A stretch of DNA of 29,318 bases from an uncultured virus (IMG/VR IMGVR_UViG_2675903231_000002) (taxonomy: Duplodnaviria; Heunggongvirae; Uroviricota; Caudoviricetes). The stretch is from IMG/VR virus record IMGVR_UViG_2675903231_000002. The stretch is one strand, 5' to 3'. The notes beneath the pieces were generated by a model. The model was not told where the DNA came from and searched no databases. It saw nothing but the letters and a program-made list of their open reading frames with translations. Every line of letters begins with the position of its first letter. The stretch's first letter is position 1. Shown piece after piece: positions 988 to 19,785 of this stretch. The translations under genes were made by a program, and so were the position numbers.

Positions 988-1016
988 GTTCCATGTCTCC
1001 TTTTGGTTTAGATGAT

Positions 1017-2603: not shown

Positions 2604-2690
2604 GAGGTTTCACTCCTTTGCCCATCCCCGTTGTCACGGGGGATGGGCGAATTTATCCCCACGTGACTCGGGTGTGGTGCAAAGGATGAG
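2604..2690 (-). promoter_or_regulatory. Long intergenic hairpin sequestering the SD, with an alternative hairpin
   Basis: TCATCCTTTGC just after the helicase stop pairs with GCAAAGGAGTGA. The alternative GCCCATCCCC/GGGGATGGGC hairpin leaves the SD free. Confidence 0.7.
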
Positions 2691-5600
2691 TTAGAGGGCG
2701 AACAACATGATCTGGTTGTCCGCTACGGACTGCTTCTTCACCCGCTTCGCCTTCTCGACCATACCCATTTGCTTCCGCCACTCACCGTACGTCAGCAGCG
2801 GCGTCGCTTCCTGGGCCACGGTTGCCTTGGCGACAGGCTTGCGGTGCGTTCCCTGGACATCTTGCGCCTCTTGAGCGACCGCGAACAGTGGAAGTGCGAT
2901 GACTTCCGCATCGGCCGGCGCATGTTGAACAGGCCGCGGCGTTGGTGCGGCCGGCACCGGCTGGATGGTCTCCTCCGGTTCAGGCACACCTGCCAAGCGC
3001 CGTGTCTCTGACGCCAGTCGACGCATCGCCTGCTGAATCTCGCGCTTGAAGCGCTCTTCGGCCAGCAGGATGACCCCGCTTGGAATGTCCTTGTCGGCGA
3101 GCGTCTTCCACTTCTGCGCCAGGTCCTCCACGTTCCCGAGGCAGTTGGCAATGGCGTAGGTCGAGGCCGATTTGTCGTCCTGCTCGATGAACTGCGCGAC
3201 TTCGGACTTGTCGAGACGGCCTTCCAAGAGCATCGCGTGGCTGCGTTTTTGCAGCATGCGCTTGAACTGAACCATCTCGTACGAGCCGTTGTAAACGTAG
3301 TAGTACACCTTGCAGGTGCGGTGTTGGCCAATCCGCCAGGCCCTGCGGGCAGCTTGCCGCATGGTCGCGATCTCGTCGGTGAACTGGTAGAACATCAGCG
3401 TCGGGCAATCGAGCAGGTCAAGGCCCACTTCTACCAGCTTGGCATTGCAGACCACAACCTGCGTTCCCTTTTTCACTGCTTCCTCCAGCCACTCAACGCG
3501 ATCCTCCGGTGAGACGGTCGCCTGCAAGACTTGGGCGCGTATGCCATGTTGCTTGAGCACATCGGCAATACGCCGGTCCTGCTGGACTTCCCCGCTGTAC
3601 CGGACGTATACCACGCAGCGACGGTTTTGCGCCAACTCGGCTTGGATGTCCTCCAGCAGACGCCGTTCTTTCGCGGTCAGTTCGTCCGGACCATACGGCG
3701 GGAAGAAACTGACGGACTCATCCCCCACCCACACTTCTTGCGGCATATGCGGCTGGTTCGCCGCATTTACCACGGACGGGATGAATTTCGCGAAGGCGTG
3801 TTGGTTGCCGATCGCATATTGCTGGCGCATGACGCCTTCAAGGGCGTTATGGAAGGACCGGTACGCCACGGCGTGTTCGTCGTCCATGTCCACGAAGATC
3901 GGTCGTTCCTCCAATTCCACCAATGGCAGGCCCATGTCGCCCAGTTCCAGAAACACCGTCTTGTCCGCCAAGTGATTGACGAACAGCTTGGGCGAAAGAC
4001 CCGGGATTTCCTTTGGCGGATTGAGGATGACCTTTCTGGACGTGGTACCGCCGGCTTCAGTTACTTCGTCCGCCGCATACCGACCGCGCTGCTCCAGCGT
4101 GCCGTACAGGTGCACGAATTTGTTGAGCGAACGGTGGTCCAGGCCATCCGCTTTCATCTCGGCCGGGCAGATGCGCCACAGCAGATGGTACAGGCTTGAG
4201 GCCTTGCCGTCGCTGAGCGTGCCCGTGAGGCCCAGAACGCGCCGGCTTGCGCCGACAATCGCACCCATCGCCTCACCCTGGCCCGAGTTGCTTTTGTACT
4301 GGTGCAGCTCATCCACGATCACCAGGTCGAAGTATCCGCGCAGGTATCGTTGGATGAACCATGCCGGTTGCAGACGACGGTGTTTGAGCCCGCTGACGGG
4401 TTCTCGCTCGGGCACCGCGTCGCGCATCAGGTTCGCGCCACACTCTGTGCAGTGGTATTCCGTGATGGACTTTTTGAACACGTAACGCGTTCTGCGGCGT
4501 TCCGTACCACCTATGCCAACCGCGGTGTACTCTTCCACCCCTGTGGCAAGGTCGGAGAAGCCGAGTTTCAGTTCCGCCAGCTGGTCCTCCACGCAGTCGT
4601 GTTTCTTGGCCTCTTTCCAAGCGGTCTGCGTGGTCTTCTTCTGAATGCCGTGGCATTCAGGGCAGATCCACACGTCCTCAAGCGCAAACACGGTGATTGC
4701 AGCATCCGGCGTGCCCGGCATGTATTTGACCGCGCCGCCGTGGGCAACCAATACGGTCTTTCGGTTCTTCTCGTCCTTGGTCTCGGGCCTCTGTGCCACT
4801 ATGACACGCTCCTTGTAGATGAGCGCGGGCACTTTCGGCATTCCGAGTTTCGCGGTGTCACGGGACAACAGGACGAATTCCAACGGTTTTTTACCGTTTC
4901 GAACCTCATTGTCCCGATAACGCACGACGTCCTTCCAGGACTCGAACACCGTCACCGGTGTGCCCGGGAGCGTCTTACCGATCTCGTCCCGAATCCATTT
5001 GGGAATGGTGATACCGGGAACGAGAAGCAATACCGCAAATCCACGCTTGGAACGTTCGGCCAAGGCCTTCGCGGTGGCGAGACTGATGATTGACTTGCCC
5101 GTCCCCATGTCGGACGAGACAATCACGCCCTTGCTCTGCTCCAGACCGTTGAGAATCGCCTGTACGGTATGTGCTTGGGCCGGGAACGGAACCCGTGCCA
5201 TCTGCGCAATCGCAGGGTTGATCGGACGGTCCAGGTCGTGCGCTGGCGTGGCCATGTCCTCGATGGTGGTGGCCAGGTGAGGCGCGTACGCCTGAAGATA
5301 ATCAATCACGTGGTACTCGCCATTTTCGTCCGGGTTCAGCACTTCCCCCAGGGCTGGCGCATCCGTCAAACCTTCCGGGAGCTGAATCGAACCAGAGCGA
5401 AGCAAGTCGCTCAGCAAATTCTTGGCCGCTTCCTCCGTCAGGTTCGGCGAGACTTCAAACGCCTGCACGTGCTTCCAGTCCGGCACGTCAGGGTCGCTCC
5501 AAACCGAGAGCTGCTGCACAAAGTTGCGCCTGTTGCACGCCAGCCAGATGACGTCCTTCCACTCCGCAACGTACGGAAGGTTGAAATCGCCTGCGAAGCG

Positions 5601-5978
5601 TCGCATGAAAAGGTCGGCGATATCTCCACCGTCCGGTACGATGAGAATGCGGGACTGTTCTGGCGCCAACTGCTCATCCACAGCCGACTTGTGCAGGATG
5701 ATCGCGTGCGTGAGCTTGCCGATGGGCCGCGTCACGAACCGATATCCGTGCTTGTCTGTGAAGATGTTGTCGGAATCAAAGCTCGACCGATTCCGCTTCA
5801 AACGCAGCCGGCTTCCCTTAATCGCGTGCGCCACAATGGCTCGGGTCGCACTATCCAGGTCAATGAGGCCTGCAGCGACGAGATCGTCACCGTTGCGTTG
5901 AAAGTTCCGGCGGGTCACGATGAAGTGCACCGCCGCCTCGACGTAATGCTTGTCGTCGCTGTAAACGAGTGTCTTCAC
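2691..5978 (-). CDS. SNF2-like superfamily 2 helicase with a Zn-ribbon insertion
   Basis: Walker A SDMGTGKS, DELH, motif III LTGT and motif VI QAARRAWRIGQ. CPEC and CTEC pairs lie between motifs I and II. Confidence 0.9.
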   Translation of the reverse strand: MKTLVYSDDKHYVEAAVHFIVTRRNFQRNGDDLVAAGLIDLDSATRAIVAHAIKGSRLRLKRNRSSFDSDNIFTDKHGYRFVTRPIGKLTHAIILHKSAVDEQLAPEQSRILIVPDGGDIADLFMRRFAGDFNLPYVAEWKDVIWLACNRRNFVQQLSVWSDPDVPDWKHVQAFEVSPNLTEEAAKNLLSDLLRSGSIQLPEGLTDAPALGEVLNPDENGEYHVIDYLQAYAPHLATTIEDMATPAHDLDRPINPAIAQMARVPFPAQAHTVQAILNGLEQSKGVIVSSDMGTGKSIISLATAKALAERSKRGFAVLLLVPGITIPKWIRDEIGKTLPGTPVTVFESWKDVVRYRDNEVRNGKKPLEFVLLSRDTAKLGMPKVPALIYKERVIVAQRPETKDEKNRKTVLVAHGGAVKYMPGTPDAAITVFALEDVWICPECHGIQKKTTQTAWKEAKKHDCVEDQLAELKLGFSDLATGVEEYTAVGIGGTERRRTRYVFKKSITEYHCTECGANLMRDAVPEREPVSGLKHRRLQPAWFIQRYLRGYFDLVIVDELHQYKSNSGQGEAMGAIVGASRRVLGLTGTLSDGKASSLYHLLWRICPAEMKADGLDHRSLNKFVHLYGTLEQRGRYAADEVTEAGGTTSRKVILNPPKEIPGLSPKLFVNHLADKTVFLELGDMGLPLVELEERPIFVDMDDEHAVAYRSFHNALEGVMRQQYAIGNQHAFAKFIPSVVNAANQPHMPQEVWVGDESVSFFPPYGPDELTAKERRLLEDIQAELAQNRRCVVYVRYSGEVQQDRRIADVLKQHGIRAQVLQATVSPEDRVEWLEEAVKKGTQVVVCNAKLVEVGLDLLDCPTLMFYQFTDEIATMRQAARRAWRIGQHRTCKVYYYVYNGSYEMVQFKRMLQKRSHAMLLEGRLDKSEVAQFIEQDDKSASTYAIANCLGNVEDLAQKWKTLADKDIPSGVILLAEERFKREIQQAMRRLASETRRLAGVPEPEETIQPVPAAPTPRPVQHAPADAEVIALPLFAVAQEAQDVQGTHRKPVAKATVAQEATPLLTYGEWRKQMGMVEKAKRVKKQSVADNQIMLFAL

Positions 5979-6053
5979 GCCATGCGCCCAGCGTGCACCA
6001 CGTCCGGGGCTTCGGCCCCGGTTTCGTGATGCACCGGGGCTTTCGCCTCCTTT
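5979..6053 (-). promoter_or_regulatory. Alternating inverted-repeat switch upstream of the helicase
   Basis: GCCCCGGT/ACCGGGGC competes with GTGCATCACG..CCGGGGC/GCCCCGG.CGTGGTGCAC. Confidence 0.7.
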
Positions 6054-6080
6054 GCGTGGTGATTTATGCAGGTCGCGTGG

Positions 6081-7130
6081 TCACTGCAAGTCCAAAATCG
6101 TCCCGTCCGGCTGGATGGTCCGCACCGCGGTCACGTAGGATTCGGTGTCGATGATGGTCTCCGACCCGTCGTCGTTTACCACCACTTCGCGCTCAACGAT
6201 TTTCCGCGTCATGCCGACGACCATGTGCCTGTTCTCGCCTACACCGACCGCGCCATTGAGCGCACCGGCCGCGATGAGCGTGGCCATGTGCGTGCGCCGA
6301 AACGGCAAGAGTGGGCGGCGCAGCGTTGAACCTGTGTCGATGGGCATGAGCATGTTGGCCGCCACCTTGAATGCTTCGGACTGTGCGAGATCGAGCCGCA
6401 GTTCTGCTTCATCGAGGATGTATCCCCGGAACAGAATTTGCGTGTCGATGTTCTCCGCAGTAGGCACCGTCCAACGTCGGCCGTCCGGTGCGTCCAGGTA
6501 CGGCATTGGCAGGTTCTCGTCTTTGCCGTAGGCCAAAAGCTCATTTTTGACTTGGCGATCGGCTTCGGTCATCTCCTTGGAACTGGTGAGATTCCGTTGA
6601 CGGCGACGCCCGAAGACCACAACCTGTTTGAAAGCCTTGTACTCGTCATCATCGAACCGGTACACGGCCAAGTCGGTGTAACGGTGAACCAGTGTGCTCA
6701 CCATTTCTGAACCGAGCGTGTACCGCGGGATGATGTACACAAGCACGCCATCCGGAGCCAGGTATTTCGTCAAGTCCTTCAGGAAAATGAGTTCCTTGCG
6801 GAATATCTCCCCTCCGAGACCCGACTGCGAATCGTACGGCGGGTTGAGCCACATCAGCTGCATGCCGGCAGGTTCAACACGGGCCCATTCGTATCCGCAA
6901 TGCACAACCTGGTCAAGTTGCTCCTTCGCCTTCAGCGCGCGCTGTCCATCGAGTTCGATTCCGTATGTCACCGCGTCCAAGGGTGCAACCGACGCCAGTG
7001 CCTCACCTTCGCCGCAGCACGGGTCGAACCAGCGTGCGGGGCCTGACGAAACAAGGCGGTCGCGAATCTTCTCCACCATGTTGAGCGGAGTCGGATAGTA
7101 CCCCATCTTCGCGATACCTGCGTAGCGCAT
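6081..7130 (-). CDS. SAM-dependent DNA amino-methyltransferase (DUF6094-like)
   Basis: Motifs GYYPTP, FDPCCGEG (motif I), YGIELD and LNPPY (motif IV). Start re-assigned to ATG 7130 (MRYAGIAKMG). Confidence 0.88.
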   Translation of the reverse strand: MRYAGIAKMGYYPTPLNMVEKIRDRLVSSGPARWFDPCCGEGEALASVAPLDAVTYGIELDGQRALKAKEQLDQVVHCGYEWARVEPAGMQLMWLNPPYDSQSGLGGEIFRKELIFLKDLTKYLAPDGVLVYIIPRYTLGSEMVSTLVHRYTDLAVYRFDDDEYKAFKQVVVFGRRRQRNLTSSKEMTEADRQVKNELLAYGKDENLPMPYLDAPDGRRWTVPTAENIDTQILFRGYILDEAELRLDLAQSEAFKVAANMLMPIDTGSTLRRPLLPFRRTHMATLIAAGALNGAVGVGENRHMVVGMTRKIVEREVVVNDDGSETIIDTESYVTAVRTIQPDGTILDLQ

Positions 7131-7169
7131 GGCATCCCTCGCGTCTGGCGCTTGGAACGTGGAGGCATC

Positions 7170-7212
7170 CCCCCTCCGTCCCAAACGTGTAGACGGAGGG
7201 GTTCACCTCCTT
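7170..7212. repeat. Direct repeat copy 1 (palindromic, 43 bp)
   Basis: CCCCCTCCGTCCCAAACGTGTAGACGGAGGGGTTCACCTCCTT. It differs from 7504-7547 only in the hairpin loop. Confidence 0.95.
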
Positions 7213-7217
7213 TGTAT

Positions 7218-7469
7218 TCAGTCGTAAAAGTCTGTCGTTTCGTCGCTTCTCCGATTGGAACGGTCCGGCACCACGCGGAGTCCAAAAATACCTTTGGCGA
7301 AAAACGCGATGCCAACCCCTAGAAGGACGATACTAAAGTTATCACATGCCATTTCCTGTGCAGACTTAGGAAACATGTTCCACCCAAAATACCATGTTTC
7401 GAGTGTGTTAAACACTAATGCCAGAAGCATTAGAGCCAACCCAATCCATATCAGAGTCTTGGCTCTCAT
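7218..7469 (-). CDS. Small two-TM membrane protein
   Basis: ATG 7469 with SD AGGGAGG. Two hydrophobic helices. Visibly more AT-rich than the flanking genes. Confidence 0.8.
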   Translation of the reverse strand: MRAKTLIWIGLALMLLALVFNTLETWYFGWNMFPKSAQEMACDNFSIVLLGVGIAFFAKGIFGLRVVPDRSNRRSDETTDFYD

Positions 7470-7503
7470 CGTTGTATCCTCCCTTGGTATGACGCGGAAG
7501 GAT

Positions 7504-7547
7504 CCCCCTCCGTCCCAAGCGTGCAAGACGGAGGGGTTCACCTCCTT
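7504..7547. repeat. Direct repeat copy 2 (palindromic, 44 bp)
   Basis: CCCCCTCCGTCCCAAGCGTGCAAGACGGAGGGGTTCACCTCCTT. Confidence 0.95.
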
Positions 7548-7559
7548 GGTTTTACTGAT

Positions 7560-7784
7560 TCAGCGCCCTTCCCCACGTTTTGACCGAGCCAACAAGTCAG
7601 AACGTCGAAAGTCCATGTACTTGCTCAGCTCAATTTTCAGGGCTTCAATCTCCGAAGGGGTGAGCTCAGATGTGTCCAGGTCGATGAACACAGACCTCGC
7701 GTCTTCAAAAACCCCTTCTAATTCTTGTTCCACTTGTGGTAACCGTTCACTGGTCCGCATGTTGCCGACACGTGGACGAGCCAA
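7560..7784 (-). CDS. Small hypothetical protein
   Basis: TTG start with SD AAAGGAG. Co-oriented and fills the gap between neighbours. Confidence 0.65.
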   Translation of the reverse strand: MARPRVGNMRTSERLPQVEQELEGVFEDARSVFIDLDTSELTPSEIEALKIELSKYMDFRRSDLLARSKRGEGR

Positions 7785-7850
7785 TGAGACATCTCCTTTG
7801 TGCCTATACCGGGTTAAATCGCACCGGCGTAGCGAATGATGTAATGGTGT

Positions 7851-8093
7851 TCAGCGCACGAATGCTCTCGGGTGCCAAACCGGTTCTGTTGAGACCGGCT
7901 TAACCAGCCTCAGCCTCGGAAATTCGGGCTGATCGGGTGTTGTGACGGGTGTTGCGATCGCAGCCTCTCCGCTTACCGACACCCGACGCCAACGACTGAG
8001 CCGGTTCAACCGTCTCTCCACCTTGGCCACAAACCGTCCGTACCAGCTATCCGTGCACTCTGTCCACAACAGTCCGTCCGCTATTGCTCTCAT
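7851..8093 (-). CDS. Small basic hypothetical protein
   Basis: ATG with SD GAGAGGGG. Co-oriented. Confidence 0.6.
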   Translation of the reverse strand: MRAIADGLLWTECTDSWYGRFVAKVERRLNRLSRWRRVSVSGEAAIATPVTTPDQPEFPRLRLVKPVSTEPVWHPRAFVR

Positions 8094-8185
8094 TTTCGTC
8101 CCCTCTCGCCCTGCAAGTAGGGGACGTAGAAGGCTTGCGCCCTCTGTCCCCTAGCTTGCAGACAGAGGGCTTAGCCCCCTTTTCG
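8094..8185 (-). promoter_or_regulatory. Alternating inverted-repeat switch
   Basis: GCCCTCTGTC/GACAGAGGGC plus CGTCCCCT/AGGGGACG (hides the SD) compete with CTGCAAGCTAGGGGAC/GTCCCCTACTTGCAG. Confidence 0.75.
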
Positions 8186-8192
8186 ATTGATG

Positions 8193-8585
8193 TTATCGGT
8201 CGATCTGCTCCGCGATGTACTCGAGTTGCTCAAGCAGTTCTCGGTTGTTGAGCAGCTGAATTGACCATGGGGCCCAAAATACGCGGCTTGCTGCCTCACA
8301 CCAACGCTTCATGTCGTTCACAAGATCATGCTCGATCCCATACGCGAACGTGTGAATTGCGTCGGTCATTTCCTGGAACGACTTTACTTTTTGCTGCAGA
8401 ACCGTGTCTGGAATCCAAACAAACTTCCACCGGCCATCAGCTTCAATAACGTACCCGTATTTCTCATGCACGAGGGTCAGCACGGGGCTGTCGTAGGTGT
8501 ACGACCATCCCCGTTGGAATAGATCGTCCAGGGCTTGCAGCGTTTCAGGAGATGGTTTCTGGAGCTTACTTGTGTCTCGTTCCAT
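8193..8585 (-). CDS. Hypothetical protein
   Basis: ATG with SD GAGGAGGAG. 130 aa. Confidence 0.75.
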   Translation of the reverse strand: MERDTSKLQKPSPETLQALDDLFQRGWSYTYDSPVLTLVHEKYGYVIEADGRWKFVWIPDTVLQQKVKSFQEMTDAIHTFAYGIEHDLVNDMKRWCEAASRVFWAPWSIQLLNNRELLEQLEYIAEQIDR

Positions 8586-8609
8586 GCGCCAGTCTCCTCC
8601 TCAAAATGG

Positions 8610-11191: not shown

Positions 11192-11197
11192 CAGAAA

Positions 11198-11266
11198 TCT
11201 CCTTTCGCCCCCGTGCTGTGCCGGGGGCTAAGGTTGATTAGCCCCGCACAGCCGGGGGAGAAGGAG
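11198..11266 (-). promoter_or_regulatory. Long hairpin from the upstream stop codon to the SD of the AAA gene
   Basis: CTCCTTCTCCCCCGGCTGTGCGGGGCTAA pairs with TTAGCCCCGGCACAGCACGGGGGCGAAAGGAG. Confidence 0.8.
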
Positions 11267-12166
11267 TTACAGCTTTTCGATCAAGGACATCATCTGCTGT
11301 TCGAGCAGGTCAACGTCCGTCTCCAGCGTTCCGATGCTCTCTTTCAGGATCTCCTGATAGAGAGTCACTTCCTGCCGGATGTGCTTCGCCCGCTCAAGCA
11401 ACGTCTGGATAGTGTCCTCCGTAATCACGTCTGCTTTCAACGTCGCTCGGATTTCGTTCAGGATCGTCTCGGCCTTGTTGGTCACGACGTCCCGAACCAT
11501 GTCCCGGGCCTCAGCCGTGTTCTCAACCGGTAGGTGGTATGCCTTGCATCCAGCCAAACGGTTGATGAACGCGATAAGCTGGAAAAGCAGTTCCTCGTTC
11601 TGCCGGGGAATCAGGTACACACCGCCTGACTCCTTGAGCGCGGTGGCCGACAAGTCGTTCAGAACCGCGTATACGGCCCGACGCTTGGCCCCGTCATCAT
11701 ACGTGGTGAGGAACAGCTCGTAGTTTTTGCGGAAGGTGTTTACCGCGTCCACGATAAACGGCTCGTCCCTCACGATCTCGACATCCACGGTCTTGTAGTT
11801 GTGGTCGAATCGCAGCAAGGCGGCCTTCGAATCGTAGGTCAGCCGGTGTCCGCTGGTATCCCGGATTTCCACGACAAGGTGACGCACCACCTCGTCCCGG
11901 TTGTGCCAGACGTCACGCACCAGCAGCTCGATCCGTCGATCACCGTCCAGCTTGGCACGTCCTTCGATGGACTTGCTTGCCCGCCGGTACGCATCCACGG
12001 CCCGAATGGGCGGGAGTTTGTATCGGTCAGGCAAACCCGATTCCATGAAGGCTCGCGCCATCGTGACCTGATCCGTGTAGGTTTCCCCGATGATGTACCA
12101 AAACAGTTGGCCGATCCGGCTGGCGGTCTGGTTTTGGTTCGCAACGAGATTCTCCAGTGCAAACAC
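11267..12166 (-). CDS. DUF6744-like protein (partner of AAA/VWA)
   Basis: Motifs IGQLFWY, DAYRRA and GGVYLIP. C-terminal coiled coil. GTG start with SD AAAGGAGG. Family assigned from memory of such trios. Confidence 0.7.
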   Translation of the reverse strand: MFALENLVANQNQTASRIGQLFWYIIGETYTDQVTMARAFMESGLPDRYKLPPIRAVDAYRRASKSIEGRAKLDGDRRIELLVRDVWHNRDEVVRHLVVEIRDTSGHRLTYDSKAALLRFDHNYKTVDVEIVRDEPFIVDAVNTFRKNYELFLTTYDDGAKRRAVYAVLNDLSATALKESGGVYLIPRQNEELLFQLIAFINRLAGCKAYHLPVENTAEARDMVRDVVTNKAETILNEIRATLKADVITEDTIQTLLERAKHIRQEVTLYQEILKESIGTLETDVDLLEQQMMSLIEKL

Positions 12167-12190
12167 TGTTGAATTCCTCCTTTTGTTTCG

Positions 12191-12331
12191 TTTCAGTGGT
12201 CTCAGGGTTCAGAGCTATCCTCTTGCCTTGAGACTGACGAATTTGTCCTCATCTCCAAGCGCCACCCGCCTGCACCGGGTGGGTGAATTTACCCGGTGCA
12301 GCGGGTTTGGCTTAGAGTGGGAACCACTGAA
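12191..12331 (-). promoter_or_regulatory. Multi-branched intergenic structure
   Basis: TTCAGTGGT/ACCACTGAA closing stem with an inner CCCGCTGCACCGGGT/ACCCGGTGCAGGCGGG hairpin. GTCTCAAGG/CCCTGAGAC competes with the closing stem. Confidence 0.7.
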
Positions 12332-13507
12332 TCAGCTTGCCGCGCGATCGGCTTCTTCGACTTGTGCTGTGAAGAGGGGGGCGATCAGACCGAGGCCGCC
12401 GTCCCCTACCGGTTTGACCGTGATGGGCTTATTGGGCCCGTCCAATCCCACCTCAACCTGTTTCACGCCGTCGGAGGAACGGAGCAAACCGATCCAGTAG
12501 TTGATGTTGCACAGGAGCGATAGCTCACTCGTAATCGTGCTGCTGACCACATCCACGTCGTGCTTCGCAGTTCCGTACTGCGCCGACGTGGCTGACACAA
12601 CAACGCGATCAGCGAAGAAGGTGAACTCCGCCCGTTGGTGTTCAGTCTCAGAAAGGATTGATACCCGTTCGCAGGCCTCCAGCAAAGTCGCCCGGTCGAT
12701 GATCACAGACGCGCCTGGTTGTTGCGGAATGATGCGGGATACATCCGGGTAACCCGTGCTCAATCCGCGAATGACCATGCGGTATGCGTCATCTCCCCAG
12801 GAGACCGTGCACGACGATGATCCGATAGAGAACGTAATCTCCTCGTCATCGTCATGCGCCGGCAGCACTGCCGCGAGTTTATCGAGCAATGCGGCCGGTA
12901 CTGGCAGGCTCCTCTCGTCTCCGGATACTTCCTGGCACGGTACGTTGTAAAGCGCCAGGCGTATCCCGTCGGTCGCCACTCCATGAAGCGTGGTGTCCGA
13001 GATTTTCAGCAACACGCCAGTCAGGGCCGGACGAGCTTCTCCCTTCGCCGCGGCATACGTCGTACGCCGCAGCAACCGGAACAAGTCCGGAGCAAGGATG
13101 ACGGCCGTGGTTGATTCGGCCGGGTCGTCACCGTAGGGCGTGAAGAGCTTCGGATCAAGCCCTGCCAGCTCGTATTTGGCGTTGCCAAAGGTGACGGACG
13201 TTCTCCCTGCGGTTTGGTGCAGGGTGATCTGACCGCTGGCACGCTTCACAATCTCGTGCAACTCCTTTGCCGGGAGCAGGCACGTACCTGACTTTTCGAT
13301 GGTGACTGGCGAGTTCGCCGCCTCCTGGAACAACGTCCGGCGGACCGACATGTCCTCGCTGCTCGCGTAGAAATCCACCCGGTCTTCGTCCTTGTTCGCC
13401 TGGATGAGCACGTGCCGCAGCACCGCCTTGTTGGTCGAGGTCGGGACCACACGTACCAGGTCGCGCAACACCTTTTCCAGCTCGGTGTTGTTGAAGGTTG
13501 CTTTCAT
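12332..13507 (-). CDS. dnaN: DNA polymerase III beta sliding clamp (element-encoded)
   Basis: Motifs RPALTGV, VATDGIRLA and YPDVSRIIP. Start re-assigned to ATG 13507 (MKATFN) with SD AAAGGAG. Confidence 0.92.
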   Translation of the reverse strand: MKATFNNTELEKVLRDLVRVVPTSTNKAVLRHVLIQANKDEDRVDFYASSEDMSVRRTLFQEAANSPVTIEKSGTCLLPAKELHEIVKRASGQITLHQTAGRTSVTFGNAKYELAGLDPKLFTPYGDDPAESTTAVILAPDLFRLLRRTTYAAAKGEARPALTGVLLKISDTTLHGVATDGIRLALYNVPCQEVSGDERSLPVPAALLDKLAAVLPAHDDDEEITFSIGSSSCTVSWGDDAYRMVIRGLSTGYPDVSRIIPQQPGASVIIDRATLLEACERVSILSETEHQRAEFTFFADRVVVSATSAQYGTAKHDVDVVSSTITSELSLLCNINYWIGLLRSSDGVKQVEVGLDGPNKPITVKPVGDGGLGLIAPLFTAQVEEADRAAS

Positions 13508-13550
13508 CGCGATCTCTCCTTTGTGTTGGTAGTCGTATGACCGAATACGG

Positions 13551-13847
13551 TCAACGAAAAACCAGCCGATTCCACAGAGGCTCCGCTTTCGTGGGTACCT
13601 CCAGGATGTCGCCTGGTTTGAGTTGCATGGCATCACGGATGTGGTTGCGCTGAATGATAGCCTCTACCACATACCGCGTGTCGTCCGGACATTGTTTCTC
13701 CGCGATGGACCACACCGTTTGCCCTGGCTCGACGACGACCTGTTTCCAACCCGATAAGTCGGGAGGAAGAAGCCGTAGGACCAGGAGTGCGTCGATCCCC
13801 GCGAGGATAAGCCCAATCCCGGCGTATCGTTTGATTCGCATTGCCAT
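13551..13847 (-). CDS. N-terminal TM plus LysM protein (YneA-like)
   Basis: Hydrophobic N-terminus, then VVVEPGQTVWSIA...LKPGDILEVP (LysM). Confidence 0.85.
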   Translation of the reverse strand: MAMRIKRYAGIGLILAGIDALLVLRLLPPDLSGWKQVVVEPGQTVWSIAEKQCPDDTRYVVEAIIQRNHIRDAMQLKPGDILEVPTKAEPLWNRLVFR

Positions 13848-13925
13848 CCCCTCCGTGGGTATCGTCCACCCACGGGACCCGCCGCCCGAGGGTGATGAGT
13901 AACCCCCGTATGGCGGGTGGGGTTG
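13848..13925 (-). promoter_or_regulatory. Intergenic hairpins overlapping the SD of the LysM gene
   Basis: ACCCGCC/GGCGGGT and CCGTGGGT/ACCCACGG stems. The second overlaps the start of GGAGGGG. Confidence 0.6.
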
Positions 13926-13931
13926 TACAAC

Positions 13932-14195
13932 TTACTGGCGCTTACGCCGCACTGCTACAGTGGACTCCCATTCATCCGCGGAGTACACCGTGATGATCGT
14001 GTTGGGCTTGGCCAGAACGACGTGCACCGGCTTTCCGTTGACATCCCCGCGTTTCATGACGCGGGTTCCGTTCTCTTGTACGGTCACGCCGACCTGGGCG
14101 ATCTGCTCGACCGCTTCAACGGGTAACCGGCGTTCGAGAATGCGTCGCACGGCGTGCCCGTCAAACACGGGCTTGGACATGGTTTTCAGTTTCAT
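13932..14195 (-). CDS. DUF4258-family protein
   Basis: FDGHAVRRILERRL...PVHVV...IITVY. Start re-assigned to ATG 14195 with SD GGAAGG. Confidence 0.8.
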   Translation of the reverse strand: MKLKTMSKPVFDGHAVRRILERRLPVEAVEQIAQVGVTVQENGTRVMKRGDVNGKPVHVVLAKPNTIITVYSADEWESTVAVRRKRQ

Positions 14196-14199
14196 GGTG

Positions 14200-14337
14200 T
14201 CACACCTTCCATTCGTCGATGTCCTCTCGGCGTGCGGTAAGCGCAGCCGGCAGAGTGCCATCGAAGTAGTGTTTGAGCATCTGGTCAAGCACGTATCCGT
14301 CGTCGTCAGACGCAAAGAACGCTGGGATCTGACACAT
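14200..14337 (-). CDS. 45-aa acidic small protein (not in the ORF track)
   Basis: MCQIPAFFASDDDGYVLDQMLKHYFDGTLPAALTARREDIDEWKV. It fills the gap between flanking genes (3 and 4 nt spacers) and has a G-rich SD. Confidence 0.65.
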   Translation of the reverse strand: MCQIPAFFASDDDGYVLDQMLKHYFDGTLPAALTARREDIDEWKV

Positions 14338-14340
14338 CCC

Positions 14341-15900
14341 TTACGCCCCCTGCGCGTGTGCGACGTCAGATACGATCTGGACCTCCAGCGGGCGATCCGC
14401 GACATACGCGGCGATGACCTGACCGCCAAACGTCTCGTCGAAAAGTCGCTGCACGGATTCGGCGTTGTCCACGTACACGGGCATCGGCTCACCCTTTGCC
14501 TGTGCGAGGACGCGGCCGATCTCGAGATCGCACCGCACCTTTTCCGAGAACGACAGCAACCGGTAAGGCCGACCCTTCCACGTAATCCTGAACGTCTCGC
14601 GGGTCTCGCCGGTTTCCTTGTTCCTGTCCGTCAAGTGAATGCGGACGTGCTCGAAAAGGCCGTTGAGCTTATCGTGCTGGGCGCGCAGGTACTGGAAGCG
14701 GAAATCCTGCAAGGCCTTCAACTTGCGCTGCAAGCCATCCAGGCGCTGACGTTCGGCTTCTAGTTCTTGCCGCACCCGCTCGATGTTCGCCCGGGCATCC
14801 TCATACGTCCGCAAGTTGGCGACATACGCGACCTCCAGAAAGTGCTCGTCTTTGAGGCGTTTCTCGATCTCTTGGACAAACCGTACCAGTTCGGCATCGG
14901 GTGCGGCGGTTTTCGGCAACGCTTCAAGTTGCTCGATCTCCGCCTTGACCTGGTTGCCTTCCTGGAACATCTCAGCCAATCTCACCTTGGCCGCCTTCGT
15001 CTTTTCAGCCACTTCTCGGCGGATCTGCTCCACCTTGTCAGGGGGTAATGGTTGCCCGCAGGTGTGGCAGTGGGTGTCCACTCTGGGGAGACTGTCTCGT
15101 AATGCACGGAAGTCCCGGCCCAGCGATTCGCGCCGTTCACGCAGCTCCTTCAAGCGCTGTTGCCGATGCTCGGCTTCCGTCTCGCGCTTGATGAGTTCTC
15201 GCTTGGCCGCTTCGTACTGCTGGCGTTCCTCGTCCGTGACTTGGCTGACAAAGGGCTTCGGTGCTCCCTTCTCAATGGCCGAAAGGTACACACTGCGCTG
15301 CCCTTCCAAACGCAGTACGGTCTCTTCGCAGGCCTTGATTTCCTGTCGAAGCCGCTGGGCGGCGTAATCGACGGAATCCAGACCCATGACGAAGAGGTCG
15401 TTCGCCAGAAGCTCCCGGTTGTCCAGGCGCATCCGAGCGAGAACCTCATCCTTGGTCACGTCGGGGACACATCGGCTCAAGACGGTTTTGGCGTCCTTCG
15501 GCTCCAGACTGCTGAAATAGCCCGGAAAAAAGATCGACAGGAACTCCTGTACCGTCCCAAACCAGCCTTCTATTTGACCGGGGGTTGGCTTCCTTCCATT
15601 CACCAACTGCACCGAGCCCTTACTTCCGACCCGTGTGCGCGAGATGGTGACCGGGCGTTTGTGGCTTTTGAGGAGAAATGTTGCGGTGACCGCCATGCTC
15701 TTGGCACCCAGGCGCATCAGGCTTTCGTCCTGCTTGGTCTTGCCGTAGATGTTGGTGCCCCACAGACACCACACGACAGCTTCGGCCAGCGTGGACTTGC
15801 CCGCGCCGTTGTGCCCGTACACGGTGGTTACGTCGCCGAAGGTGAACTCGGCGCGTTCAAAGCAGCGGAAGTTCTCCAAGACGAGCGCTTGGAGTTTCAT
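14341..15900 (-). CDS. Rad50/SbcC-like (SMC-family) ATPase
   Basis: LENFRCF, Walker A GHNGAGKST, coiled coil with Zn-hook CHTCGQ, signature LSFSEK and Walker B VYVDNAE. Confidence 0.88.
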   Translation of the reverse strand: MKLQALVLENFRCFERAEFTFGDVTTVYGHNGAGKSTLAEAVVWCLWGTNIYGKTKQDESLMRLGAKSMAVTATFLLKSHKRPVTISRTRVGSKGSVQLVNGRKPTPGQIEGWFGTVQEFLSIFFPGYFSSLEPKDAKTVLSRCVPDVTKDEVLARMRLDNRELLANDLFVMGLDSVDYAAQRLRQEIKACEETVLRLEGQRSVYLSAIEKGAPKPFVSQVTDEERQQYEAAKRELIKRETEAEHRQQRLKELRERRESLGRDFRALRDSLPRVDTHCHTCGQPLPPDKVEQIRREVAEKTKAAKVRLAEMFQEGNQVKAEIEQLEALPKTAAPDAELVRFVQEIEKRLKDEHFLEVAYVANLRTYEDARANIERVRQELEAERQRLDGLQRKLKALQDFRFQYLRAQHDKLNGLFEHVRIHLTDRNKETGETRETFRITWKGRPYRLLSFSEKVRCDLEIGRVLAQAKGEPMPVYVDNAESVQRLFDETFGGQVIAAYVADRPLEVQIVSDVAHAQGA

Positions 15901-15904
15901 GGGA

Positions 15905-15995
15905 ATCCCTCCCGTGGGTGTGTTTTGAACACAAGCCCACGGTCGATGCCGGGGCTTGTGTGAAACAGGCCCCGCGCATCATGCGGGATGATGTT
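15905..15995 (-). promoter_or_regulatory. Cascade of overlapping hairpins upstream of the SMC-like gene
   Basis: GATGC..GGGGC/GCCCC.GCATC competes with CACAAGCCC.CGG/CCG.GGGCTTGTG, which competes with CCGTGGG..TGTGTT/AACACACCCACGG next to SD GGAGGG. Confidence 0.7.
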
Positions 15996-16039
15996 CGTTA
16001 CCGTCCTTCTTGGTTGGGCCGCGGATGTGTCGAGGCCCG

Positions 16040-16354
16040 TTACCTCGTTGCCCCGAAGAGCCCTTCCTCGCTCAACACTCGGATAAGCTCCTGTTCGGCC
16101 GCATCGGCTTCTTCCTCCGTCTCAAACGGTGACTTGACGCCGATTTGCTCTTTGGCCTCCTCCATCAGTCTCGTCACATCCAACTTGGCGAAGTCCACGG
16201 TGATGGCTTTCCGGTCCTCTACTGGGAACCGTTCCGCGTAGCGATCTGCCACAACGGCCGACATCAGCGGGTATCCGGATATCTCACCATTCTCGACAAA
16301 CGCCGGAAAGTTGGTGAACGTGACCGAGTTAAACTCCATGGTCGTCGTCGTCAT
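16040..16354 (-). CDS. Small acidic hypothetical protein
   Basis: ATG 16354 with SD GAAAGGA. About 21 D/E against 10 K/R. Confidence 0.75.
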   Translation of the reverse strand: MTTTTMEFNSVTFTNFPAFVENGEISGYPLMSAVVADRYAERFPVEDRKAITVDFAKLDVTRLMEEAKEQIGVKSPFETEEEADAAEQELIRVLSEEGLFGATR

Positions 16355-16433
16355 TTGAGGTCCGTCCTTTCGCATTTCGACCCGTCCCTTCGGTATTCTG
16401 CTGTATCAGCATTATATACCTTTGGGACGAATC

Positions 16434-16826
16434 TTACTGATTATGCTGGTTATGGCGACTGTGCCGAAGGTCAGTGAGCACCGTAACGACCGAGAAACGG
16501 GCCTCCCCTCGGACATTTGAAATCGCCAGAGCGATTGCCAGCGAAGGTTTCCCTTTCTCAGGGCGACCCACGATTGTAAATACGGGATCTCGATTCTGAA
16601 AGGGGTTCTCACCGTATGGGTACGTGTACGGTGAATGCATTTCGACTGGCTCTCCGTTACGTATGGCCAGTTTGACCACCGCCTCGGGGATACCGCGTTC
16701 AACCATGCGACCCTTGGCATGGTCGGTGAACTTGACCAGGTTGTGCTCCAGATGCATCTGGAGAACACTCTTCAGTAAGGGCCAGTGCTTTTGATACGCG
16801 TTTCCGTTTCCACCTGAGGTCTCCAT
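16434..16826 (-). CDS. DUF4258-family protein
   Basis: VKFTDHAKGRMVERGI...FSVVTV. Confidence 0.8.
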   Translation of the reverse strand: METSGGNGNAYQKHWPLLKSVLQMHLEHNLVKFTDHAKGRMVERGIPEAVVKLAIRNGEPVEMHSPYTYPYGENPFQNRDPVFTIVGRPEKGKPSLAIALAISNVRGEARFSVVTVLTDLRHSRHNQHNQ

Positions 16827-16905
16827 TCAACCGCCCATCGTGCAACACCACCGAGAGGGTTCCCCTCTCGCGTGTTGAACGAGAGGGGGCCTTTCCCTCC
16901 TTTCC
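16827..16905 (-). promoter_or_regulatory. Alternating inverted-repeat switch downstream of ssb
   Basis: CCCTCTCG / CGAGAGGG / CCCTCTCG triple allows two exclusive hairpins. Confidence 0.7.
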
Positions 16906-16913
16906 TGGTGTCG

Positions 16914-17399: not shown

Positions 17400-17423
17400 C
17401 AGCTCATCTCCTTTCAGGACACA

Positions 17424-18491: not shown

Positions 18492-18508
18492 GGCAATTCC
18501 TCCTTCGC

Positions 18509-19051: not shown

Positions 19052-19108
19052 GCCGATCCCCCCCTCGTGCACGTGCAGTGGCTTGTGCATACCGCATAAG
19101 AAGCACTC

Positions 19109-19171: not shown

Positions 19172-19241
19172 TTGCATCTCTCCCGATTCTCCCCGCTTGG
19201 CCGCCGGGGAGACTGATTTTTCCCCGCGGCTGGGGATCGGG

Positions 19242-19690: not shown

Positions 19691-19696
19691 AGCGTT

Positions 19697-19725
19697 ATCA
19701 TATCTCAAGATTATTACACGCGCAA
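19697..19725 (-). promoter_or_regulatory. SigmaA-type promoter
   Basis: TTGCGC (19725-19720), a 17 bp spacer, then TATGAT (19702-19697), in an AT-rich patch directly after a terminator. Confidence 0.75.
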
Positions 19726-19736
19726 TAGACCTTGAC

Positions 19737-19769
19737 AAAAAATTAGCACCACCTCTTGGCGGTGCTAAT
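19737..19769 (-). terminator. Intrinsic terminator of the Tad/S1 block
   Basis: ATTAGCACCGCCAAGAGGTGGTGCTAAT followed by TTTTT, about 16 nt after the S1 gene stop. Confidence 0.88.
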
Positions 19770-19785
19770 CACCAGTTGCCTGGCT

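What the first reader, a model, noticed from the sequence alone, without database searches (positions are those of the whole stretch)
2604..16913. Operon-wide family of two-state RNA switches gating ribosome-binding sites
Seen: about 10 junctions (2604-2690, 5979-6053, 7131-7217, 7470-7559, 8094-8192, 11192-11266, 12167-12331, 13848-13931, 15901-16039, 16827-16913) consist of alternating inverted repeats without U-tracts. They mostly differ in sequence but share a topology of mutually exclusive helices, one of which covers or abuts the next SD or start region. I saw none in the Tad block. Inference: this is a translational relay or folding-timer system that makes establishment genes translate only transiently, or only when the upstream cistron is translated. 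A role as folded ssDNA during transfer is an alternative. I do not recognise it as a described element family.
Basis: partly seen in the sequence, partly recalled or inferred. Interest (0 to 1): 0.88.

Follow-up and report, generated by a model that had tools for sequence, protein, structure and literature searches.

The report
Structured mRNA junctions in a plasmid operon
Almost every gap between genes in this mobile-element operon folds into a conserved RNA structure around the next gene's ribosome-binding site, and one recurring type is a previously undescribed two-state leader found in front of a DNA methyltransferase gene.

Summary
That is 11 of 12 gaps in 2604-16913, against 26 of 247 comparable gaps in the host genome. 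The Tad-block gaps are ordinary.

The junctions are not one family. I see at least three designs:
- **Coupling clamps (3-4 junctions).** The sequence just after the upstream stop codon pairs with the next SD.
- **Orphan-SD leaders (5 junctions).** Each has an SD-like motif with no usable start codon and two near-isoenergetic, mutually exclusive folds. This module sits before 22 of 22 assessable DUF6094 methyltransferase genes in the order and has no Rfam match.
- **Others.** One is two-state. One leaves its SD free.

Structures are conserved with compensatory changes in related Alicyclobacillus-type plasmids and ICEs. In the orphan-SD class, G·U pairs mark the mRNA strand.

The junctions most likely control translation initiation in cis. 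The trigger and its sign are inferred, not shown. mRNA processing or stabilisation is the main rival. ssDNA promoters are not supported. This is a new variant of known kinds of RNA control.

The parts
19710..19738 (-). Likely promoter of the long operon (TTGTCA, 17 nt, AATAAT with TG)
   Evidence: the best sigma-70-like site in 2000-20000 (10 of 12 positions). It lies directly after a canonical terminator at 19741-19770 that ends the Tad block. This is a consensus match only.
16827..16913 (-). Junction SSB to DUF4258 gene: orphan-SD two-state leader, type 1b (outer helix, S1:X2, X:X')
   Evidence: z -3.3. E2/E1 0.95 with 0 of 100 shuffles as good. Orphan strong SD. Similar junctions in G027 and G004 keep the outer helix through different sequence (read by eye).
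16376..16433 (-).
   Evidence: z -7.3. Masking the stop codon plus 10 nt lowers the SD opening cost by 3.8 to 17.5 kcal/mol. One dominant fold (E2/E1 0.38).
15901..16039 (-). Junction before the SMC-like ATPase gene: two hairpins that compete with a central hairpin; the SD abuts the second hairpin
   Evidence: z -4.0. E2/E1 0.95 with 0 of 100 shuffles as good. SD opening cost 9.7. The central alternative pairing is also possible in G035 and L001 with different sequence (by eye, not counted formally).
13848..13931 (-). Junction DUF4258 gene to LysM gene: two hairpins closed by a helix between the junction's 5' end and the SD/start
   Evidence: z -3.7. SD cost 15.7. The architecture is kept in G027 and G035 with a changed outer helix. 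The terminating-ribosome effect depends on which ATG is used: -5.4 or +1.1.
12167..12331 (-). Junction DnaN-like gene to DUF6744: large structured domain followed by a free SD
   Evidence: z -6.6. SD cost only 0.6-3.6, so this structure does not gate the RBS. A related hairpin is present in G035.
11192..11266 (-). Junction DUF6744 to MoxR: three-tier hairpin whose closing helix pairs CTCCTT, right after the stop codon, with the SD AAAGGAG (coupling clamp)
   Evidence: z -7.9. Seven elements align: 25 pairs, 4 with compensatory changes. Masking the stop plus 10 nt lowers the SD cost from 9.6 to 1.4.
8094..8192 (-). Junction before g7851: orphan-SD module (type 1a) plus a second hairpin that holds the true SD
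   Evidence: z -8.3. Model R1 hit at 65.7 bits. E2/E1 0.86 with 0 of 100 shuffles as good.
7470..7559 (-). Junction before g7218: orphan-SD module (type 1a)
   Evidence: z -3.1. R1 hit at 64.7 bits. SD cost only 3-4 kcal/mol.
7131..7217 (-). Leader of the DUF6094 methyltransferase gene: the reference copy of the orphan-SD two-state module
   Evidence: R1 hit at 75 bits. The MFE is fold beta and the centroid is fold alpha. alpha and beta differ by 0.5 kcal/mol. The same module precedes 22 of 22 assessable DUF6094 genes in the order.
7203..7213 (-). S1: orphan SD-like motif AAAGGAGGTGA
   Evidence: No ATG, GTG or TTG at SD spacing. GGTGA is invariant across 9 type-1a copies while its pairing partner X2 varies.
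7136..7140 (-). True SD (GAGGG) of the methyltransferase gene
   Evidence: Start confirmed by homologue alignments that begin at residue 1. Opening cost is 7.0 free, 12.4 with S1 masked and 6.3-7.2 with S1 plus 15-20 nt masked.
5979..6080 (-). Junction methyltransferase to SNF2-like helicase: type 1b module with X / X' / X2 repeats
   Evidence: z -4.4. E2/E1 0.95 with 0 of 100 shuffles as good. Helices are kept through different sequence in L002, G035 and G004.
5975..6034 (-). Candidate 19-codon mini-ORF (GTG start 11 nt after AAGGAGG) whose TGA overlaps the helicase GTG start
   Evidence: Of 9 related junctions, 5 end in an ATGA or GTGA overlap, 1 is in frame with the main gene, 1 stops next to the start, 1 is shorter and 1 has no start.
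2604..2690 (-). Junction helicase to g2271: nested hairpin closed by the stop-proximal TCATCCTTTGC pairing with GCAAAGGAGTGA (coupling clamp)
   Evidence: z -5.8. Masking the stop plus 10 nt lowers the SD cost from 12.6 to 3.4. Three elements align: 16 pairs, 3 compensatory.

Best explanation
The junctions are cis-acting structures in the polycistronic mRNA of a plasmid/ICE 'establishment' operon. The operon is probably transcribed from the promoter at 19738-19710. The structures set how readily each downstream cistron is translated, and they use at least two different designs.

(A) Coupling clamps: J2604, J11192, J16376 and perhaps J13848. Each is a long hairpin whose closing helix pairs the roughly 10 nt after the upstream stop codon with the next SD. 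A ribosome terminating upstream would melt that helix and free the SD. The hairpin also brings the stop codon and the next start site close together. These genes would therefore be translated mainly when the upstream gene is translated.

(B) Orphan-SD two-state leaders: J7131, J7470 and J8094, with the variants J16827 and J5979. A strong SD-like motif (S1, AAGGAGGTGA) has no usable start codon. It is followed by C-rich X, G-rich X', C-rich X2 and then the true, weaker SD. Two long hairpins exclude each other.
- Fold alpha is S1:X2 enclosing X:X'.
- Fold beta is X' paired with the extended X2, with X paired to the true SD region.
- The two folds are nearly isoenergetic.
- I infer that ribosome occupancy at S1 selects the fold. 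Blocking S1 alone closes the true SD. A 30S docked on S1, which would also cover X, opens it.
- In J5979 the S1 motif instead drives a mini-ORF of about 19 codons that runs through the switch and ends on the helicase start codon.

Shown: the structures, their conservation, their bistability and their link to the methyltransferase gene.
Inferred: that ribosomes are the trigger, and the direction of the response.
For: Non-random and specific to this region:
- 11 of 12 gaps against 26 of 247 host gaps.
- The Tad-block gaps are ordinary.

Conservation with covariation:
- DUF6744-to-MoxR junction: 7 elements, 25 pairs, 4 compensatory.
- J2604 family: 3 sequences, 16 pairs, 3 compensatory.
- X:X' helix: 35 distinct sequences, 95.4% of cells paired against 84.6% in shuffles (0 of 500 shuffles as high). 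Six of 10 pairs show double changes. Slid controls give 48-59%.

Strand:
- The S1:X2 helix has 13 G·U cells of 45. These would be C·A mismatches on the other strand.
- J7131, J7470, J8094 and J16376 fold 4-14 kcal/mol better as sense RNA.

Position relative to translation signals:
- SD opening costs exceed the host's (p 0.0011).
- Masking the stop plus 10 nt lowers the SD cost by 3 or more at 3 of 12 window gaps, against 6 of 247 host gaps. The same holds at 10 of 34 structured gaps in four relatives.

Orphan SD:
- 5 of 12 window gaps against 18 of 247 host gaps.
- Genome-wide, 38 of 55 AGGAGGTGA sites have a start codon at SD spacing. The two in these leaders do not.

Bistability in 17 orthologous methyltransferase leaders:
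- Median G(beta) minus G(alpha) is -0.55 kcal/mol.
- Beta is far more stable than with a shuffled 3' tail: median z -4.2, and 16 of 17 have z<-2.

Consistent logic across those 17 leaders:
- S1 masked raises the SD cost in 16 of 17.
- Median costs are 5.4 free, 9.1 with S1 masked, 2.9-3.1 with S1 plus 15-20 nt masked, and 5.6 with only the loop masked.

The leader is non-coding. Its phase to the ATG is 0, 1 or 2 in 6, 4 and 7 leaders, and several carry in-frame stops.

The module precedes 22 of 22 assessable DUF6094 genes.

The mini-ORF frame is kept in 5 of 9 related junctions, and a sixth is in frame with the main gene.
Against: - There are no expression, probing or reporter data. No RNA run holds this DNA, so transcription of the whole stretch as one mRNA is itself inferred.
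- The designs are heterogeneous. J12167 leaves its SD free, and J7470's SD costs only 3-4 kcal/mol to open.
- SD costs depend on the flanks and on which start codon is assumed. J13848 and J16827 change a great deal.
- The host baseline is already high, with a median of 5 kcal/mol.
- The direction of the type-1 switch flips with the assumed ribosome footprint. In constrained folds, alpha or beta closes the SD in different orthologues.
- There is no global strand asymmetry. G·U pairs are 29 of 368 in sense MFEs and 40 of 391 in antisense MFEs. Four junctions (2604, 5979, 12167, 15901) fold better as the complement, and both strands fold well with DNA parameters.
- The relatives are few and related. 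The shuffle controls do not correct for phylogeny.
- Gene calls for the host and relative controls are crude ORF heuristics.
- The 16S 3' tail of this genome could not be read. Complementarity of S1 to the anti-SD rests on the recalled consensus for Bacillota.
- In low-GC relatives the DUF6744-to-MoxR junction carries a hairpin plus a T-run. This hints at a terminator-like ancestry.
Confidence: 0.6

Rival explanations
1. mRNA punctuation for processing and stability. The operon transcript is cut in the A-rich single-stranded stretch after each stop codon. The hairpins then protect the new 3' ends from exonucleases. The orphan SD, bound by a 30S, and the 5'-proximal hairpin block 5'-to-3' decay by RNase J1. 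Each cistron thereby gets its own half-life. Any effect on the SD is secondary.
For: - S1 is a strong SD-like motif without a start codon, sitting at the 5' edge of the junction and followed at once by a stable hairpin.
- In B. subtilis, ribosomes at an exceptionally strong SD block RNase J1, and 5'-proximal structures protect mRNAs (PMC5737220: abstract and passages read). I recall the STAB-SD element of cryIIIA; I did not read that paper.
- J12167 is strongly structured yet leaves the SD free.
- Hairpins directly after stop codons are also the commonest structured class in the host.
Against: - It does not explain why closing helices pair specifically with the next SD, with compensatory changes.
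- It does not explain why the 3' tails of 16 of 17 leaders have evolved a competing fold.
- S1 is partly paired with X2 in the consensus fold.
- No processing data exist.
Confidence: 0.2
2. Transcriptional elements. The hairpins are weak, U-less terminators or pause sites inside a long operon. RNA polymerase modified at the 640-nt leader reads through them (processive antitermination), or they give a polarity gradient.
For: - In low-GC relatives (L003, L006, L007, L009, L042, L051) the DUF6744-to-MoxR junction is a hairpin followed by a T-run.
- In Paenibacillus-type loci the structured gaps mostly carry T-tracts.
- The operon starts with a long untranslated leader that holds a terminator-like hairpin at 19322-19240.
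- I recall that long conjugation operons with internal terminators and antitermination exist in pLS20; I did not read that work.
Against: - No U-tract follows any of the 11 hairpins on the coding strand.
- Neither alternative fold of the type-1 leader creates a terminator.
- The SD pairing and the orphan SD have no role in this model.
Confidence: 0.08
3. Folded single-stranded DNA. During conjugative transfer the hairpins form in the transferred strand. There they act as priming sites, ssDNA promoters or protein-binding sites for early establishment.
For: - The gene content looks like a leading or establishment region. The window has SSB, methyltransferase and helicase genes. The related ALC3 plasmid record adds an AcrIIA9-family gene, PcfJ and an antitoxin.
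- ssDNA promoters are known in leading regions of other plasmids (PMC11541004 search listing; PMC6294495 and PMC13478746 abstracts).
- Both strands fold significantly with DNA parameters (z -1.3 to -9.6), and four junctions fold better as the template strand.
Against: - No junction hairpin contains -35/-10-like hexamers. The scan found 4 sites in 18 kb against 5.4 expected, and none at a junction.
- The stems are 8-30 bp and G+C-rich.
- G·U pairs in S1:X2 (13 of 45 cells) are specific to the mRNA-sense strand.
- Registration to stop codons, SDs, start codons and a mini-ORF has no meaning in DNA.
- Eleven sites of different sequence are unlike priming signals, which as I recall number one to a few per plasmid.
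- oriT and the transferred strand are unknown here.
Confidence: 0.07
4. Module-boundary sequences. The repeated type-1 module serves mainly as a short homology patch that lets small cassette genes be swapped between elements by recombination.
For: - J7131 and J7470 share 44 nt at 93% although their flanking genes are unrelated.
- The genes between the VWA gene and the methyltransferase gene differ between elements, while the module recurs there.
Against: - It does not explain the compensatory changes, the bistability or the strict link to DUF6094 genes.
- The other junction classes are not repeated at all.
Confidence: 0.05

Closest known systems
Translational coupling through an SD-sequestering structure melted by the upstream ribosome (RNA phage coat, lysis and replicase genes; ribosomal-protein operons). 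Recalled textbook cases; PMC2978339 and PMC9955659 seen in the search listing only.
   Same: In J2604, J11192 and J16376 the next SD is paired in the ground state. The model frees it when the stop codon plus 10 nt are held single-stranded.
   Different: The anti-SD lies in the untranslated spacer right after the stop codon, not in upstream coding sequence. A conserved multi-tier hairpin of 60-80 nt sits between stop and SD. The design recurs at several junctions of one operon and in its relatives.
ermC/cat-type translational attenuation (leader ORF plus 1:2/3:4 against 2:3 pairing). Recalled.
   Same: There are alternating complementary segments, and the true SD is released when an upstream segment is occupied by a ribosome. 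J5979 has a leader mini-ORF with its own strong SD.
   Different: The type-1a leaders have no leader ORF at all. The proposed trigger is docking on a start-less SD. No drug or stalling signal is known.
Strong-SD 5' stabilisers in Bacillota (hbs mRNA: PMC5737220, abstract and passages read; STAB-SD of cryIIIA, recalled)
   Same: An SD-like motif with extended complementarity to the anti-SD is not used, or not mainly used, to start translation. It lies upstream of the real RBS.
   Different: Here the motif is embedded in a conserved two-state structure and pairs with an anti-SD-like partner. It sits inside an operon rather than in a promoter-proximal 5' UTR. Any effect on stability is untested.
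Ribosome standby sites (MS2 coat, tisB; PMC5934652 and PMC7708055, abstracts in the search listing only)
   Same: A ribosome-binding region lies upstream of a structured RBS and could hold a 30S until the RBS opens.
   Different: As I understand them, standby sites are unstructured stretches. Here the candidate site is a perfect SD that itself takes part in the competing folds.
Known controls of establishment genes: Frpo-type ssDNA promoters, and the Reg576 repressor of p576 (PMC6294495, abstract read)
   Same: The same biological setting: early genes of a conjugative element.
   Different: Those act on transcription. The structures here have no promoter hexamers, and their logic is tied to translation signals.

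Membership tests
Translational coupling by SD sequestration | The downstream SD is base-paired in the free mRNA | tested here: met
   SD opening cost is 9.6-17.7 kcal/mol at J2604, J11192 and J16376. The host median is 5.0.
Translational coupling by SD sequestration | The pairing partner lies where the upstream ribosome unwinds the mRNA | tested here: met
   Masking the stop plus 10 nt lowers the cost by 8-17 kcal/mol at J2604, J11192 and J16376. J13848 depends on the start codon chosen. There is no effect at 7 other gaps, and the cost rises at J7131.
Translational coupling by SD sequestration | Downstream translation depends on upstream translation | not testable with these tools
   This needs reporter fusions.
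ermC-type translational attenuation | A leader ORF with its own SD lies upstream of the regulated gene | tested here: not met
   Type-1a leaders have no start codon at SD spacing. Their phase varies and several have in-frame stops. It is met only for the J5979 type, where the frame is kept in 5 of 9 and in frame in 1 more.
ermC-type translational attenuation | Mutually exclusive pairings, one of which frees the SD | tested here: met
   In 17 leaders the median difference between beta and alpha is -0.55 kcal/mol, and the beta z against shuffled tails has a median of -4.2. The SD cost falls when S1 and X are masked.
STAB-SD / strong-SD 5' stabiliser | An SD-like motif not followed by a start codon | tested here: met
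   (5 of 12 window gaps against 18 of 247 host gaps).
STAB-SD / strong-SD 5' stabiliser | Lies at the 5' end of a (processed) transcript and lengthens its half-life | not testable with these tools
   No RNA run is listed.
Ribosome standby site | An accessible single-stranded site upstream of a structured RBS | tested here: inconclusive
   The cost to open S1 ranges from 0.3 to 9.9 kcal/mol among 17 leaders.
Frpo-type ssDNA promoter | The hairpin rebuilds -35 and -10 hexamers | tested here: not met
   No promoter-like site lies at any junction. The scan found 4 against 5.4 expected in 18 kb.
Intrinsic terminator | A G+C-rich hairpin followed by a U-tract on the transcribed strand | tested here: not met
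   There are no T-runs after the 11 hairpins. Low-GC relatives do have them at one junction.
Any Rfam 15 family | A match to a curated covariance model | tested here: not met
   0 matches at E<=1 in the window. Five related loci gave only two sub-threshold microRNA chance hits.

The most novel reading that the evidence does not exclude
The orphan-SD module is a ribosome-sensing riboregulator. A start-less, near-perfect SD recruits a 30S subunit purely as a ligand. Its footprint flips a conserved, isoenergetic two-state leader. This times translation of the anti-restriction-type methyltransferase and the neighbouring small cassette genes just after the element enters a cell. The coupling clamps relay translation down the rest of the operon. 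The element's own bS1-like multi-OB protein (19786-20667) may help ribosomes of a Bacillota host to open these structured start sites.
Probability: 0.2. Interest if true: 0.8.

Novelty: new variant of a known kind. Interest (0 to 1): 0.6.

Why it matters
Early 'establishment' genes decide whether a conjugative plasmid survives its first minutes in a new host. The controls described so far act on transcription: ssDNA promoters and repressors such as Reg576.

This operon suggests a layer that acts on translation and is written into nearly every gap between genes. It also yields a concrete, testable new RNA motif. The motif has 35 distinct model-aligned sequences and sits before 22 of 22 assessable DUF6094 methyltransferase genes in the order. 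It has a start-less SD and two balanced folds.

If ribosome docking is the trigger, this would be an unusual way for an mRNA to sense translation capacity. It would also be useful as a compact synthetic part. If the junctions prove to be stability elements instead, they would still explain how a roughly 19-kb operon is expressed unevenly.

Tried and rejected
- **Expression data.** No RNA holder is listed for window 7000-16990.
- **Rfam.** Nothing in the window or in five related loci.
- **Earlier notes of this scan.** Nothing by place, words or sequence.
- **Genome-wide repeat (REP-like).** Rejected: no copies outside the operon.
- **N-terminal extension of the methyltransferase read from S1.** Rejected: the phase varies and several leaders have in-frame stops.
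- **Mini-ORFs as a general feature.** Rejected: only J5979 has a canonical start at SD spacing.
- **Metagenome scan.** It added one closer relative, L113 at 65%. Its junction is not significantly structured (z -1.35). The rest were distant MoxR genes in other contexts.
- **Host 16S 3' end.** Not found in the assembly, so the anti-SD sequence was assumed.
- **Aligning the 3' half of the leaders.** MAFFT and RNAalifold could not align it, so fold beta was tested per sequence rather than by covariation.
- **Type 1a and 1b in one alignment.** It gave a poor consensus.
- **Global G·U asymmetry between strands.** None found.
- **Family searches for the small cassette genes.** NCBIfam and PHROGs gave nothing informative.
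- **Literature.** The searches found no description of this leader or of junction-wide RNA structures in establishment operons. Supplements were not consulted.
- crashed on a wrong coordinate and repeats it. One search used the constraint sign the wrong way round, so its 'beta' numbers are void and are replaced.

Full report
**Setting.** All long ORFs of the window lie on the minus strand. Pfam places a Tad-like pilus block and a ParM-like gene at 19786-29184. Downstream, in transcription order, come these genes:
- a CHC2 zinc-ribbon protein, a Gp3-like RDF and SSB;
- two DUF4258 genes, an SMC-like ATPase, a LysM protein and a DnaN-like clamp;
- DUF6744, bpMoxR and VWA;
- four small unknown genes;
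- a DUF6094 methyltransferase and a 1095-aa SNF2/ResIII helicase;
- Prok-E2 and JAB genes.

A canonical terminator (19770-19741) is followed at once by the best sigma-70-like site of the region (19738-19710, minus strand). The stretch from about 19700 down to 58 is therefore probably one operon.

The same module occurs elsewhere:
- on Alicyclobacillus plasmids of 125-137 kb;
- integrated in a same-genus chromosome, G027;
- in other Alicyclobacillaceae;
- more distantly in Paenibacillus, Brevibacillus and actinomycete plasmids.

In the annotated ALC3 plasmid the neighbours include an AcrIIA9-family protein, PcfJ, a KilAC antirepressor and an antitoxin. That is the flavour of a conjugative establishment region.

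- The 10 listed gaps have z from -3.1 to -8.3 against 200 dinucleotide shuffles.
- One gap is unstructured (7785-7850).
- The three Tad-block gaps are ordinary.
- The second junction really runs 5979-6080.
- A gene-blind sliding scan puts 8 of 14 strong peaks at these gaps.
- In the host genome, 26 of 247 comparable same-strand gaps reach z<-3, against 11 of 12 here (Fisher 1.3e-9). The gene calls for this control are crude.
- The sequences are not repeated elsewhere in the genome.
- No U-tract follows the hairpins.
- Close relatives are also rich in U-less structured gaps: G027 7, G035 7, G004 8, L002 5 and L045 7. Paenibacillus-type loci mostly have a hairpin plus a T-tract.

**Not one family.** Reading and folding the junctions shows different designs.

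**Class A, coupling clamps (J2604, J11192, J16376, perhaps J13848).**
- Each is a long nested hairpin whose closing helix pairs the roughly 10 nt after the upstream stop with the next SD. In J11192 this is CTCCTT with AAAGGAG.
- Holding the stop plus 10 nt single-stranded, as a terminating ribosome would, lowers the SD opening cost by 8-17 kcal/mol at the first three. J13848 depends on which ATG is used.
- A drop of 3 or more occurs at only 6 of 247 host gaps. In four relatives it occurs at 10 of 34 structured gaps.
- The J11192 structure aligns in seven elements (25 pairs, 4 compensatory).
- J2604 aligns in three (16 pairs, 3 compensatory). The anti-SD:SD helix changes in step.
- These junctions have one dominant fold (E2/E1 0.38-0.69). 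They are locks that need an opener, not equilibrium switches.

**Class B, orphan-SD two-state leaders.**
- J7131, J7470 and J8094 share a common plan. The segments, in order, are S1 (AAGGAGGTGA), X (CCCCTCCGTC), a loop, X' (GACGGAGGGG) and X2 (CCUYC). The true, weaker SD lies 25-40 nt further on.
- J16827 and J5979 follow the same plan with other sequences.
- S1 has no ATG, GTG or TTG at SD spacing. Genome-wide, 38 of 55 copies of the same 9-mer do have one.
- Orphan strong SDs occur in 5 of 12 window gaps and 18 of 247 host gaps.
- A covariance model of the hairpin (R1) finds 34 places in 18 of 64 genomes of the order.
- In a sample of the class it finds none in 140 genomes from other families.
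- On 35 distinct model-aligned sequences, X:X' is 95.4% paired. Six of 10 pairs show double changes. Shuffled and slid controls are far lower.
- The S1:X2 helix carries 13 G·U cells of 45, so it exists only on the mRNA strand.
- The GGTGA of S1 is invariant while its partner X2 varies. This points to a second, invariant partner. I take that partner to be the 16S 3' tail. This is recalled, and I could not verify it in this genome.

**The module is the leader of DUF6094 methyltransferase genes.**
- Of 24 DUF6094 matches in the order, two begin at contig ends.
- All 22 others have an R1 hit just upstream on the same strand.
- The other 12 of the 34 R1 places do not lie just upstream of a DUF6094 match; those I examined precede small genes.
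- I analysed 17 of the 22 leaders. I left out near-identical copies in G026, G015, G032 (two) and G022 (one).
- All 17 precede proteins that begin MRYEG..KMGYYPTP or a close variant.
- The leader is non-coding.

**Bistability of the leader.**
- Fold alpha is S1:X2 enclosing X:X'. Fold beta is X' paired downstream with the extended X2, with X often paired to the SD region.
- The median free-energy difference between them is -0.55 kcal/mol.
- Beta is much more stable than with the 3' tail shuffled: median z -4.2, and 16 of 17 have z<-2.
- For the window's copy, the independent folding tool gives beta as the MFE (frequency 0.12) and alpha as the centroid.
- Which fold closes the true SD differs between orthologues. 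One rule holds throughout, shown by the median SD opening cost under different masks:

| Masked region | Median SD opening cost (kcal/mol) | Consistency |
|---|---|---|
| None | 5.4 | |
| S1 only | 9.1 | higher than free in 16 of 17 |
| S1 plus 15-20 nt (the span a docked 30S would cover) | 2.9-3.1 | lower than the S1-only mask in 17 of 17 |
| Loop only (control) | 5.6 | |

- The signs persist at 55 C.
- The leader thus behaves like an attenuator whose input is occupancy of S1 and X. Whether that input is a terminating ribosome, a docked 30S, a protein, or only folding kinetics is not shown.

**J5979.** Here S1 is followed 11 nt later by a GTG that opens 19 codons. These codons cross the X/X'/X2 repeats and end in a TGA that overlaps the helicase start. 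The outcomes in 9 related junctions are:

| Outcome | Count |
|---|---|
| Mini-ORF ends in an ATGA or GTGA overlap with the main start | 5 |
| In frame with the main gene | 1 |
| Stops next to the main start | 1 |
| Shorter | 1 |
| No start codon | 1 |

A translated leader ORF coupled to the helicase is likely but unproven.

**Other junctions.**
- J15901 is two-state (E2/E1 0.95). Two hairpins compete with a central one. The competing pairing is also possible in G035 and L001 with different sequence (by eye only).
- J12167 is a large structured domain that leaves a strong SD free.

**Weighing the explanations.** These points favour control of translation in cis on the mRNA:
- registration to stop codons, SDs and start codons;
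- compensatory changes in SD-closing helices;
- the orphan SD;
- G·U pairs on the sense strand;
- the mini-ORF.

The main rival is processing and stability punctuation. The orphan SD plus a 5' hairpin resembles stabilisers that block RNase J1 in B. subtilis (PMC5737220), and J12167 does not gate its SD. Both functions could coexist.

A terminator or antiterminator reading gets some support from the T-tract hairpins of low-GC relatives and from the long leader with a terminator-like hairpin at 19322-19240. But the hairpins here lack U-tracts.

The ssDNA reading is weak. There are no promoter hexamers and the sense-strand G·U pairs argue against it. It is not excluded by energetics, because both strands fold under DNA parameters and four junctions fold better as the complement.

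**Limits.**
- There are no RNA data.
- Energies come from nearest-neighbour models, mostly at 37 C, for an organism whose relatives are thermoacidophiles.
- SD costs vary with context.
- The relatives are few and related.
- The control gene calls are heuristic.

**Comparison with what is known, and novelty.** SD-sequestering clamps, attenuator-like alternative pairings, strong-SD stabilisers and standby sites are all known kinds. I found three things not described in Rfam or in the papers searched:
- a conserved, start-less-SD, two-state leader tied to DUF6094 methyltransferase genes;
- spacer-encoded coupling clamps;
- their concentration at nearly every junction of an establishment operon.

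I file it as a new variant of known kinds, of moderate to good interest.

Noticed in passing
window 19786-20667 (-): The last gene before the operon's terminator and promoter encodes a 293-aa protein with weak sequence similarity to ribosomal protein bS1 (NCBIfam E 1e-8, far below cut-off; PDB bS1 chains E 1e-7; no Pfam hit). A model built on 15 relatives (pLDDT 86.7) shows tandem beta-barrels, and its best Foldseek matches are bS1 chains (E 4.6e-12). The gene occurs in 21 of 64 genomes of the order, including 15 of the 18 that carry the leader motif. It lies on the same contig in every case I compared by eye, so this may be mere linkage. It could bind RNA or ssDNA.
   Followed up: partly
window 19091-19700 (-), hairpin 19240-19322: About 640 nt of untranslated leader lie between the likely promoter and the first gene. 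The leader contains an A-tract, a 14-bp stem and a U-tract hairpin with a 48-nt loop. It could be an attenuator, a small RNA or part of an antitermination system. Rfam gave no match.
   Followed up: partly
window 58-1754 (-): The operon ends with Prok-E2_D and JAB / prokaryotic-ubiquitin-like genes, close to their Pfam cut-offs. This is a ubiquitin-like conjugation set inside an establishment operon.
   Followed up: no
window 13551-13847 (-): The small LysM protein shows weak similarity to the cell-division suppressor YneA (E 2e-7, below cut-off).
   Followed up: no
L003, L006, L007, L009, L042, L051 (DUF6744-to-MoxR gap): In low-GC relatives the same junction holds a hairpin followed by a T-run, which looks like a classical intrinsic terminator. 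The clamp of the high-GC clade may derive from such a terminator.
   Followed up: partly
G004 element (L166 about 1980-6889): The helicase homologue matches in two pieces about 1.6 kb apart (query 1-895 and 894-1095). This suggests an insertion or a split gene.
   Followed up: no
L185 (G011) 1501-1705: A copy of the leader module is not followed by a methyltransferase gene. Instead, about 40 nt on, there is a J2604-like clamp and another gene. It looks like a deletion that joined two junction modules.
   Followed up: partly
window 7218-7469 (-): The small gene behind J7470 matches a phage protein family of unknown function (phrog_33441, E 2e-7). The other small cassette genes match nothing.
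   Followed up: no
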